Counted from the first letter of the stretch, positions 10,041 through 13,000 are shown. The stretch: 64,000 bases of DNA from Ptychomitrium polyphyllum (GCA_973851085.1 OZ316775.1:6448001-6512000), one strand, 5' to 3'. The notes: a model not told the origin generated them from the letters alone. Translations and numbers: made by a program.

Positions 10041-13000
10041 TTAAGCAAAGCTTCTCTGTTTTCTATGTCCACGCTTTGATACCACACGCTCACTTGAGTC
10101 ATCGGGCATTCCTGAGTCAGAAGCTGCCTTTGATACGCCAACTGATTTAGCAGCAACAACGTCCCTAAAATCGAGTAGATCATTACTATCTAGGTGAGGC
10201 TCCATGGTTTCGCCAAGTGAGGGAGGGAGTCCTGCGCTAGCGATGGAGCTGTTGGACAAACTGCCGAATCTTTGCTTCGAACTACCCAAAGAATTAGCTG
10301 CTGATGATGAATCACTAGCCACTGAAGGCCCAACACGTAATTTGTTCTGCTCTTCGAGTCTGCGTTGGCTCTCCAAAGGTAAGTTGGCATAGCAGTTATA
10401 ACAGTAGCAGCTGCTATCTAACCCACATTGGCCACGAGGTCCATGAGGCGAGATTCGCGTGTGTTTCACACAATAAACGCTCTGACATTCTCGACAATAA
10501 TGCTTATTGAGCTTCATCCACCAGTCTTGCAATGAATGCCACCGATCAAATCGTACTTTACAACCTTCATGGTTGCACCTGCATTTTCAGCCAAACCACG
10601 AGTCAAAACTACATGCTATTCCGAAGAGCTATTCAGATTAGTTTCAATGATTCACCTAAAATCTCCGTTACAGTACTACAAAACAGCATCACTACTGCCA
10701 GTGTTAAATTATGCACTAAACAGACCATTTGACCAAAACAAAGTGTTCAACGTATAAAGAAAATGCCAAAAACGATAACTTGCATACCGATGCAGAAACA
10801 GCAATTCACCTGTTTCTACTACGCTTCGAAGGAACATGAAGCAGCTCTACGTCCCGCTGAGAAGCTGAAGGTGGGAACACTACTGCCTCGTCTATTACTT
10901 CCTCCAACTCCACTTCTCTCTCACTGCTGTTAGGAGAAGAGCCTTTTGAATCCCCAGAACTCAATTGCAGGCCTACACCACTTGCTCCTAAAAGGTTATC
11001 TGCACTTATACTTCGAATATCTTGAGCCTCGAAATATCCCCCATTTAGTTCTTCAGCTTCAATGGGACTTTTCATACACGGTTCACTTAAACTCTTCAAT
11101 ATAGCTCTCTTTGAAGCTAACGACGGATCTACTCCAAGCCTGGAAAGTGTCCAGACTTTATGACGCATGTAAGACCAACTTTCATAAGTCATTAAGATAG
11201 AACGTGCAGCTGTTCTCACACAAAGATGAGGGCTTGCTAATCCTTGCCTCAATGCCTGCTGTAAATGATTCTTCAAAAGAACCCAAGCAGCTAAAGTTAC
11301 ATCAAAGAAGAATGTGTGTCGTGAGAACAAGGCTAGAAGCACTATAACCCCTGAATTTATCCAAGTCCACATACCACTTTCCTGCTCCTGAGATGGATTG
11401 GATCCTTTGGGCGTTAGCAAGTCTGAGTCCAGGCTTGCACTAACTTGGCGTGGCATCTGTAAAGGCACCGTATCCTCTACGTCCAGTTTTGAAGACAAAG
11501 GAGGATCAACATCTGCTCTACAACCATCTATGGTGACCCAATTCGAGGGGCCATGGCCACCCCAAGTTTGCACTCTATATGTGTATTCTTTCCCCAATTT
11601 GACGGCATTTCTGTCGAGGTAAGCAACCTCCCTCGTATCAGCCACATTCGTCCAAGTAGAGAATGTCTTTGACCACCGTTCAATCAGATACTTGTGCAAT
11701 GGAGGCACACCGAGGTTGGTGGGAGCTTCCCATGAGAGCTGTATGCCACCATAACTAGATGGACTACATTGTAATGAGCGAACTGGACCTGGAGCATTGC
11801 CAATTCCGAAGATCTGTCTCACCAAAGCGTGGGTAATTTTAGTCCGGTGTAGAGTACTCTTGATGCCAAGGTCCTCAAGCAAAGCTTCGCTGTCGTTCTC
11901 AATAAGAGCTGGGAAGTCCATACCATTGATGGCATTCTGCCGGAATACTTCTGCATATTGTGGCAGTTGTAGTCCGTGAGTAACCCAATCTACTACATGA
12001 TTTGCAGTCATCATGTTTGACAAATGATCCTGTACAAAAAAACACATAAGAATAAGTAGCGGAATATTCACTAATTTCGTATGTAAAGCATAGACATACA
12101 CGACCTATTAGTTGAAATTCTGTAATATAGCTTTAAGAAGATCAGAATATCAGTATTTAGTATACTATGATCATCCCCTCATGCCTCTCTTGATAATTGA
12201 GTTTGCAATGTATTCGTTCATTACCTCTGGTATCAGTTCGGTCAACATGTACTACATTTTCCAACTTAACTCTCACTAAGGGATCAGCAGTATATTTCTC
12301 TGAAAAGAACAAATTAGTGTAAACGACACCAGGAATCAAGGGTATTTCAAGACAAACGTAACAAGCTCTCACCAGCATCTCTTCAGCGGATATGGTGTTT
12401 CCTCCGTAGCTGAAATTGAAGTCAAACTGAGAGGACGCTATCAGCTCACTCATACCCTCTTTTGTTTCCATATCACCTTCATCTACCATTTGTGCGTCCA
12501 GCTTCCGCAAAAACTGCATTCAGGGTCCAGACATTCAATGCAGGCTGTAAGTCAGTGAACTTGGAACTCTGTGAAGCCCATACAAAGGGATATAGGCATA
12601 CAGACCTAGAAAATGATAAAGCTAACTACTATTAAAAAGAATAGAGCGCCATCTCACAATCCTGTACGAGGTCCTACACAGGGCCCTAGAATAAAACAAA
12701 ATTTGCAGAGAAGAAAAAGATGTATAACCTTTGAAGCTTCGCCTTGCTCAATTTCGCCATTTCCATCTTGATCTACTTTACAGAAAAAGGAATCCAGATT
12801 TCGTTGAGAGCCTTTGGCATACGCTTCCGCTCCCAGAAATACCACCACCAGAAGCCCTACAAGAAGCGTGAATTTCCAAAGGACACAAAGCTTGTAACTG
12901 GATCTGTGTTTCCTGCAAAGCTGCAAATAAGGCATGTTCGCCATCATCTTCGCGACGCCTTCCTCCAACTCTCCGGCAGCGACATGTCCATGTGCACCAC

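What the first reader, a model, noticed from the sequence alone, without database searches (positions are those of the whole stretch)
10041..11797. Non-canonical output side of the STIM-like protein: FN3, single TM, FYVE-like finger and basic tail instead of CC1/SOAR
Seen: FN3 sits between SAM and the TM helix. The cytosolic part has no obvious long coiled coil. It carries RCNHEGCKVRF...NKHYCRECQSVYCVKH...CGLDSSCYCYNCY and ends VVSKRGHRKQRSFA*. Known: FYVE fingers have Cx2C...R(R/K)HHCRxCG.VFC..C...RVCxxC and bind PI3P, and animal STIM uses a Lys-rich tail to bind plasma-membrane phosphoinositides. Here the basic patch is degenerate (NKHYCR) and no WxxD is visible, so lipid specificity may differ. 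Inference: a transmembrane device coupling luminal or extracellular Ca2+ to tethering of a second membrane (ER-PM or ER-endosome contact), possibly independent of Orai.
Basis: partly seen in the sequence, partly recalled or inferred. Interest (0 to 1): 0.8.

Follow-up and report, generated by a model that had tools for sequence, protein, structure and literature searches.

The report
Moss STIM-like sensor with zinc-finger output
This moss gene encodes a membrane protein whose front half matches the calcium-sensing unit of animal STIM proteins but whose back half is a conserved zinc finger instead of STIM's channel-opening coil, and because its relatives occur in algae, mosses and gymnosperms that have the Orai calcium channel yet are reported to lack STIM, it is a likely candidate for that channel's missing switch.

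Summary
A four-exon minus-strand gene (13088-10041, 752 aa) encodes: signal segment, EF-hand, hidden EF-hand, SAM, FN3, membrane span, amphipathic helices, linker, Cys/His finger, tail. The finger exon is spliced on in relatives' intron-free contigs. The EF-SAM unit's best full-length structure matches are STIM1/STIM2; no SOAR or coiled coil is found.

Three corrections. (1) The finger is FYVE-derived but keeps 12 invariant Cys/His, predicted to bind three zinc ions; the extra site takes the first His of the basic motif and the Arg of RVC, so classic PI3P binding is unlikely. (2) The basic C-terminal tail is limited to some true mosses (6 of 36 rows); the conserved basic element lies just before the finger (35 of 36). 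(3) Orai independence is not favoured: the family spans green algae to gymnosperms plus unnamed protists, no angiosperm member was found, and Orai is reported with that range.

Best reading (about 0.5): an ER calcium sensor that clusters on store depletion, docks on the plasma membrane through the finger and engages Orai. Localisation, calcium, zinc, lipid and Orai binding are all untested. Ten literature searches found no description; recent reviews call STIM absent from plants.

The parts
12729..13088 (-). Coding exon 1 (aa 1-120; start Met may be aa 1 or aa 9): basic N-terminal extension, signal segment, canonical EF-hand
   Evidence: maps to intron-free L001
12813..12890 (-). Hydrophobic signal peptide or anchor (aa 67-92), basic residues before it, small residues after it
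   Evidence: KD 2.62; a like segment in most full-length relatives
12738..12773 (-). Canonical 12-residue EF-hand loop (aa 106-117: D1, D3, N5, G6, I8, E12)
   Evidence: sequence; conserved in relatives
12373..12513 (-). Coding exon 2 (aa 121-167) with the hidden EF loop at 12414-12379 (Phe at loop position 1, Ile at 8)
   Evidence: STIM1 F108 and I115 are loop positions 1 and 8 (PMC11506743)
11802..12008 (-). STIM-type SAM domain (about aa 175-243), in exon 3 (12029-10810)
   Evidence: Pfam SAM_1 E=7.5e-9; 60-to-60 residue match to STIM1/2 SAM against 65-to-60/61 for SAMD5 and SHANK2
11520..11795 (-). FN3 domain (about aa 246-337) with a Cys pair kept in land plants
   Evidence: Cys pair in 20 of 20 land-plant rows
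11322..11372 (-). Predicted transmembrane helix (about aa 387-403) ending at a conserved Arg
11136..11321 (-). Juxtamembrane amphipathic helical stretch (about aa 404-465); no match to STIM CC1/SOAR
10833..11135 (-). Ser/Glu-rich variable linker, probably disordered
   Evidence: mean conservation 0.28
10810..10832 (-). Polybasic patch directly before the finger, where FYVE domains carry WxxD
   Evidence: net charge +2 or more in 35 of 36 rows
10392..10577 (-). FYVE-derived finger (aa 575-636) with 12 invariant Cys/His, predicted three zinc sites, and a Trp-rich insertion in the turret-loop position; in exon 4 (10578-10041)
10326..10391 (-). Helix pair after the finger, conserved in the green lineage
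10041..10076 (-). Basic C-terminal tail and stop codon; limited to some true mosses

Best explanation
The gene encodes a membrane protein with a STIM-type EF-hand/SAM unit, an FN3 domain and a 12-ligand FYVE-derived finger, and it likely works as an ER calcium-store sensor whose finger would dock on the plasma membrane and engage the Orai channel when stores empty. Shown: architecture, homology of the EF-SAM unit to STIM, absence of CC1/SOAR, invariance of the 12 ligands, family range. Inferred, in order: (1) the signal segment puts EF-SAM-FN3 in the ER lumen (about 0.7); (2) calcium bound in the canonical loop keeps EF-SAM compact and its loss drives oligomerisation, as in STIM1 (about 0.7); (3) FN3 and the membrane span pass clustering to the cytosolic side, replacing the coiled-coil release of animal STIM by an avidity switch; (4) clustered fingers bind acidic plasma-membrane lipids through the basic patch and Trp-rich loop, not through a PI3P pocket, which a third zinc site is predicted to occupy; (5) the invariant surface of the finger recruits or gates Orai (about 0.5).
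For: EF-SAM profile: best full-length PDB matches are STIM1 6pw7 (E=1.3e-9) and STIM2 2l5y (E=1.6e-9), one stretch over both domains; 97% profile match to a SOAR-bearing STIM; colinear alignment with five true STIM EF-SAM units. A 2024 review finds EF-hand plus SAM only in STIM (PMC11506743). Luminal side: FN3 Cys pair in 20 of 20 land-plant rows, N-glycosylation sequon at one FN3 loop in 16 of 16 algal rows (most algal rows are close kin). Finger: 12 Cys/His invariant in 36 of 36 aligned rows chosen for having the finger; pattern in 30 of 34 sequences tested, the 4 misses ending or shifting frame before it; third-site pattern in 30 of 36 green and 27 of 45 non-green long hits; finger plus helix net charge +3 to +9. 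Range: named members in Physcomitrium, Ceratodon, Sphagnum, Diphasiastrum, Selaginella, Gb_ proteins (Ginkgo, label recalled), Closterium, Gonium, Micractinium; no named angiosperm hit in three word-based searches and one seed-plant-type cluster among the 150 best of an exhaustive profile search. Orai is reported up to gymnosperms but not in angiosperms (PMC8318260; PMC11894410) and is listed for Physcomitrella, Selaginella, Micromonas, Volvox, Chlamydomonas, diatoms and oomycetes (PMC7016017 supplement).
Against: Nothing was measured. No ER-retention motif was identified and FN3 is typical of cell-surface receptors (own knowledge). The Orai link rests on shared range and one shared loss (angiosperms); co-occurrence was not tested genome by genome, and the non-green members are unnamed in my calls. 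Angiosperm absence is a search blank: a member could sit inside the gymnosperm-type 50% cluster. Two papers report no Orai in oomycetes (PMC4820453; PMC9694693), where the family seems present (Atlas lead 0.87); the list in PMC7016017 contradicts them. The finger shares no sequence with SOAR. The membrane span is only moderately hydrophobic. The Physcomitrium EF loop has Arg for Gly at position 6, and one annotated isoform lacks the signal segment.
Confidence: 0.5

Rival explanations
1. Orai-independent, calcium-regulated tether or scaffold: luminal calcium controls ER contact with another membrane through the finger, serving lipid transfer or signalling, with no channel partner.
For: No SOAR. 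The finger is basic with a Trp-rich loop. Oomycetes were reported to lack Orai yet seem to hold the family.
Against: Range matches that reported for Orai, including the angiosperm loss; a more sensitive survey lists Orai in oomycetes. A general tether has no evident reason to be lost together with Orai.
Confidence: 0.22
2. Cell-surface or vacuolar/Golgi receptor: EF-SAM-FN3 senses outside or organelle calcium and the finger recruits a cytosolic protein.
For: FN3 ectodomain, disulfide-type Cys pair and sequons fit any exoplasmic space; tandem EF-SAM-FN3 copies in non-green members resemble a receptor ectodomain; no retention signal seen.
Against: The hydrophobic core before the conserved Arg is only about 16 residues, more like ER-resident proteins (own knowledge); closest known sensor acts in the ER.
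Confidence: 0.15
3. The finger is a working PI3P-binding FYVE domain and the protein makes ER-endosome contacts.
For: All 7 PDB hits are FYVE domains; one non-green member passes the Pfam FYVE cut-off (P0354, 29.1 against 27.8); 16 of 27 non-green fingers keep both His.
Against: WxxD absent in all rows scored; second His replaced, mostly by Tyr or Phe, in 29 of 30; the following Arg kept in only 12 of 30; RVC Arg replaced by Cys in 30 of 30. These motifs define PI3P binding (10.1101/765594; PMC3017826).
Confidence: 0.07
4. The finger is an AN1/RING-type module linking the sensor to ubiquitin or proteasome machinery.
For: Its C-x2-C-x4-C-x2-H-x5-H core fits AN1 spacing (recalled); Pfam zf-AN1 is matched weakly by 4 of 8 members, best E=0.03.
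Against: No AN1 or RING structure among 9 and 7 PDB hits; non-green members show the FYVE-type first Cys pair and basic His motif; FYVE matched by 7 of 8 members.
Confidence: 0.06

Closest known systems
STIM1/STIM2 (animals, choanoflagellates; EF-SAM structures 2K60, 2L5Y, 6PW7)
   Same: Signal segment, canonical EF-hand, hidden EF-hand with Phe1/Ile8, SAM of the same length, one predicted membrane span; range overlapping Orai
   Different: FN3 between SAM and membrane; no CC1, no SOAR/CAD; output is a zinc finger; terminal basic tail not conserved; several non-green members keep a canonical-looking second EF loop
FYVE domains (Vps27, EEA1, Hrs; Pfam PF01363)
   Same: Cross-braced Cys spacing, basic His-Cys motif, C-terminal helix, hydrophobic loop before the motif
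   Different: No WxxD, second His mostly Tyr/Phe, RVC Arg is Cys, four extra ligands (12 in all), first Cys pair x4 in greens; not among FYVE classes I-VII of Physcomitrella (10.1101/765594, section 13)
Protrudin (ZFYVE27) and plant extended synaptotagmins (ER-anchored tethers)
   Same: ER anchor plus a cytosolic lipid-binding module; protrudin's FYVE is atypical (recalled)
   Different: They have no luminal calcium sensor; no sequence relation was tested or seen

Membership tests
[quoted passage not shown] | Canonical EF-hand plus hidden EF-hand | tested here: met
STIM | STIM-type SAM directly after the EF pair | tested here: met
STIM | Single transmembrane helix, luminal N-terminus | tested here: inconclusive
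   moderate hydropathy; Cys pair and sequons favour a luminal N-terminus; no topology predictor available
STIM | Cytosolic CC1 coiled coil | tested here: not met
   (rough heptad score with STIM controls)
STIM | SOAR/CAD Orai-activating domain | tested here: not met
   0 of 36 members; found in true STIMs P0288, P0309
STIM | Calcium-dependent oligomerisation in the ER and gating of Orai | not testable with these tools
Classic PI3P-binding FYVE | Two cross-braced zinc sites (8 ligands) | tested here: met
   8 positions align, one is His as in Vps27; by sequence only
Classic PI3P-binding FYVE | WxxD motif | tested here: not met
   0 of 36, 0 of 57
Classic PI3P-binding FYVE | (R/K)(R/K)HHCR motif | tested here: not met
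   window has N-K-H-Y-C-R; second His in 1 of 30, final Arg in 12 of 30
Classic PI3P-binding FYVE | RVC motif | tested here: not met
   Arg position is Cys in 30 of 30
AN1 zinc finger | Pfam zf-AN1 score above cut-off and H-x-C ending | tested here: not met
   best E=0.03, window 7.6 bits against 27.9; the second His is followed by x5-Cys

The most novel reading that the evidence does not exclude
This family is the missing Orai activator of green plants and other non-animal eukaryotes: store-operated calcium entry is far older than animals, with one EF-SAM sensor wired to two unrelated outputs (SOAR in animals, a three-zinc FYVE-derived finger elsewhere), and flowering plants lost sensor and channel together.
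Probability: 0.4. Interest if true: 0.93.

Novelty: new variant of a known kind. Interest (0 to 1): 0.8.

Why it matters
Reviews of 2021-2025 state that plants, green algae and diatoms have Orai but no STIM, and ask whether store-operated calcium entry exists there (PMC8318260, PMC11085791, PMC11894410, PMC11506743). This family gives a named candidate in tractable organisms: Physcomitrium (LOC112281924) and Selaginella both hold it and have listed Orai genes. It makes the question testable by knockout and imaging, moves the origin of the EF-SAM sensor before the animal lineage, and points to an undescribed finger in which a lipid pocket appears to be rebuilt as a third zinc site.

Tried and rejected
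No whole genome is held for this window, so paralogues and Orai in this moss were not checked. No RNA holder was listed; the two runs laid were unspliced contigs. AlphaFold2 models were poor: EF-SAM-FN3 mean pLDDT 53, only FN3 usable; finger mean pLDDT 50, no Foldseek match at E<=0.001, so the three-zinc model has no structural support. A two-copy finger job with zinc gave no answer (score 0.01). No Orai sequence was available, so finger-Orai binding was not modelled. The juxtamembrane profile found nothing in the PDB at E<=10, and the window's stretch only one unrelated hit. Atlas hits (0.87 oomycete fn3+SAM cluster; 0.86 FYVE clusters) are leads below 0.9. The careful tree did not finish; the quick tree is used. 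Of 31 loci, eleven (L020-L022, L024-L031) are unrelated SAM proteins and were set aside, and L018 is a short fragment. No Orai domain among 64 long window ORFs scanned (7, 57; short exons not covered). A tie to flagella was considered and dropped because Closterium holds the gene (its lack of flagella is recalled). I first took oomycetes as Orai-free and reversed this on the accession list. Collins and Meyer 2011 is not held; Edel et al. 2017 was seen only as cited; supplements of 10.1101/765594 were not seen.

Full report
Gene and observation. The finding lies in the last two coding exons of a minus-strand gene. Exons 13088-12729, 12513-12373, 12029-10810 and 10578-10041, separated by GT-AG introns of 215, 343 and 231 bases, give a 752-aa frame that is 84% identical to a Ceratodon purpureus protein over its length; in a quick tree the window's protein is sister to it, so the source is a true moss. 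No RNA run was listed for this DNA. Splicing is shown in relatives: intron-free contig L001 maps to all four coding exons at about 74-88% identity with the same breaks, and intron-free L002 joins the exons of genomic locus L007 at 99.7-100% identity, finger exon included.

Input side. After a basic N-terminal extension comes a hydrophobic segment (aa 67-85, KD 2.62), a canonical EF loop (aa 106-117), a hidden EF loop (aa 154-165) and a SAM domain. A profile of six plant EF-SAM stretches finds C. elegans STIM1 (6pw7, E=1.3e-9) and human STIM2 (2l5y, E=1.6e-9) first among 226 PDB sequences at E<=0.1, each in one stretch over both domains; the calmodulin-like hits listed cover only the first EF-hand. 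The SAM of the Physcomitrium relative matches STIM1/2 SAM 60 residues to 60, but SAMD5 and SHANK2 65 to 61 and 60. The hidden loop has Phe at position 1 and Ile at 8, the positions of STIM1 F108 and I115 (PMC11506743, passages). The same profile retrieves SOAR-bearing STIMs from 1.84 billion representatives, matches one at 97%, and aligns colinearly with them. FN3 follows. Its Cys pair is kept in 20 of 20 land-plant rows and an N-glycosylation sequon sits at one FN3 loop in 16 of 16 algal rows, which favours a luminal or outside location.

Output side. The membrane segment has a short hydrophobic core ending at an Arg that is invariant in 7 of 7 rows, then amphipathic helices that are longer in land plants than in algae. 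No match to CC1 or SOAR was found: Pfam SOAR in 0 of 36 members, no STIM hit in two PDB searches, and a rough heptad score above the shuffle maximum in 2 of 25 rows against 2 of 2 STIM controls. After a variable linker comes the finger; with EF-SAM it is the best conserved part (0.64 against 0.70 for SAM and 0.23 for the tail, 18 rows of which 2 lack the finger).

What the finger is. PDB hits are weak but consistent: 6 of 9 and 7 of 7 are FYVE domains. Non-green relatives bridge the gap: they carry a CxxC first pair and motifs such as R-x-R-H-H-C, one passes the Pfam FYVE cut-off, and their finger matches the green one at 91%. The PI3P-defining motifs (WxxD, (R/K)(R/K)HHCR, RVC; 10.1101/765594 and PMC3017826, passages) are not kept: WxxD in 0 of 36 rows scored, one row skipped; second His in 1 of 30; following Arg in 12 of 30; RVC Arg replaced by Cys in 30 of 30. 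Instead 12 Cys/His are invariant in the 36 rows of alignment A8 (rows were chosen for having the finger, and four sequences that end or shift frame before it were left out). In window numbering these are C575, C580, H600, C602, C605, C610, H613, H619, C625, C631, C633, C636. Eight fill the two FYVE sites; the other four (H600, H619, C625, C631) include the first His of the basic motif and the RVC Arg position, both pocket residues in FYVE. I infer a third zinc site in place of the PI3P pocket. The pattern is present in 30 of 36 green and 27 of 45 non-green hits of 380 aa or more, and in 0 of 4 STIM or other hits (groups assigned by me from the FastTree); 10 of the 12 positions are invariant in an alignment of 14 non-green proteins. 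Structure prediction could not test this. A polybasic patch precedes the finger in 35 of 36 rows, finger plus helix carry +3 to +9, and the loop before the His motif is lengthened and Trp-rich in greens. Many algal and some non-green members carry a different basic, Trp-containing helix in the cytosolic part (19 of 74 scanned).

Range. Named members: Physcomitrium patens, Ceratodon, six Sphagnum species, Diphasiastrum, two Gb_ proteins, Micractinium, Selaginella, Gonium, Closterium, plus marine picoalga-like loci L015-L017 and chlorophyte-like L019. The quick tree separates chlorophytes from streptophytes and groups mosses and gymnosperm-type proteins, as expected of vertical descent. The exhaustive search gave 570 representatives at E<=0.001; the best 150 include a 49-unit green clade and several non-green groups, some with tandem EF-SAM-FN3. 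The six non-green proteins I looked up are unnamed; an Atlas cluster that is mostly oomycete is a lead. No named angiosperm protein appeared, and among the 150 only P0019 is above 62% identical to the Ginkgo-type EF-SAM. These word-based searches miss members (one search did not return two of its own query rows), so the blank rests mainly. Orai is reported in the green lineage up to gymnosperms and not in angiosperms (PMC8318260, PMC11894410, PMC11085791; passages). PMC7016017 lists Orai for Physcomitrella, Selaginella, Micromonas, Ostreococcus, Volvox, Chlamydomonas, diatoms and oomycetes (supplement parts 158-159), against PMC4820453 and PMC9694693, which found none in oomycetes (passages).

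Mechanism. I commit to an ER store sensor (about 0.5 for the whole chain). Calcium loss would unfold and oligomerise EF-SAM as in STIM1 (mechanism from PMC11506743); clustering would bring the fingers together, raise their avidity for acidic plasma-membrane lipids and present an invariant surface (R583, D585, S617-G620, G623) to Orai. Each of these steps is inferred. The main rivals are an Orai-independent tether (0.22), a surface or organelle receptor (0.15), a PI3P-binding ER-endosome tether (0.07) and an AN1-like ubiquitin adaptor (0.06).

What is known. It works like STIM on the input side but is not a member by the EF-hand+SAM+TM+SOAR definition, and the finger fails the classic FYVE tests. 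Ten full-text searches listed no paper describing this architecture. PMC11506743 says STIM is absent from plants and that no other protein combines EF-hand and SAM; PMC7016017 (passages) places STIM's origin near animals, and its supplement, cut when stored, does not hold four family accessions searched; the Physcomitrella FYVE survey (section 13) does not include it. PMC11990657 and PMC2894845 (passages) add nothing on plants. Databases name members 'uncharacterized', 'Calmodulin' or 'EF-hand domain-containing'. Subscription papers, among them Collins and Meyer 2011 and Edel et al. 2017, were not readable, and domain-database labels were not checked. Four earlier AI notes of this scan describe what appears to be the same family in a diatom, an oomycete, a protist and a green alga; they are leads, not support.

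Verdict. Real, conserved and apparently undescribed: a new variant of the STIM kind of sensor with a distinct output domain. Interest 0.8, because it contradicts a repeated statement in reviews and makes the question of store-operated entry in plants directly testable.

Noticed in passing
window 44006-49740 and 50410-56144: A 5735-base perfect inverted duplication (100% complementary, 669 bases apart) carrying two copies of a chlorophyll a/b-binding gene; recent duplication or assembly artefact.
   Followed up: partly
window 17400-27500: Degraded chromodomain-bearing Ty3/gypsy retrotransposon pieces (gag, protease, RT, RNase H, integrase) with stops.
   Followed up: no
window 6908-8195, minus strand: Downstream neighbour: multi-exon membrane protein gene with a weak YrhK-like match.
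   Followed up: no
window 36254-38137, minus strand: Gene with thioredoxin and thioredoxin-like domains, resembling a protein disulfide isomerase.
   Followed up: no
window 9563-9674, minus strand: A 3' untranslated exon of the STIM-like gene, 79% identical to the relative's intron-free contig L001, implying an intron after the stop codon.
   Followed up: partly
P0288, P0309, P0313: STIM-type proteins (two with SOAR by Pfam) carrying tandem EF-SAM units, paralleling tandem EF-SAM-FN3 in non-green family members.
   Followed up: no
L019:8575-8982; P0106, P0248, P0231: Basic Trp-containing amphipathic helix in the cytosolic part of algal and protist members, resembling a calmodulin-binding 1-8-14 motif (motif recalled).
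   Followed up: partly
P0306: A family member with a weak protein kinase match at its C-terminus in place of the finger; may be a gene-calling fusion.
   Followed up: no
P0004 and P0024: Physcomitrium has an annotated isoform lacking the signal segment, and Arg at position 6 of the EF loop.
   Followed up: no
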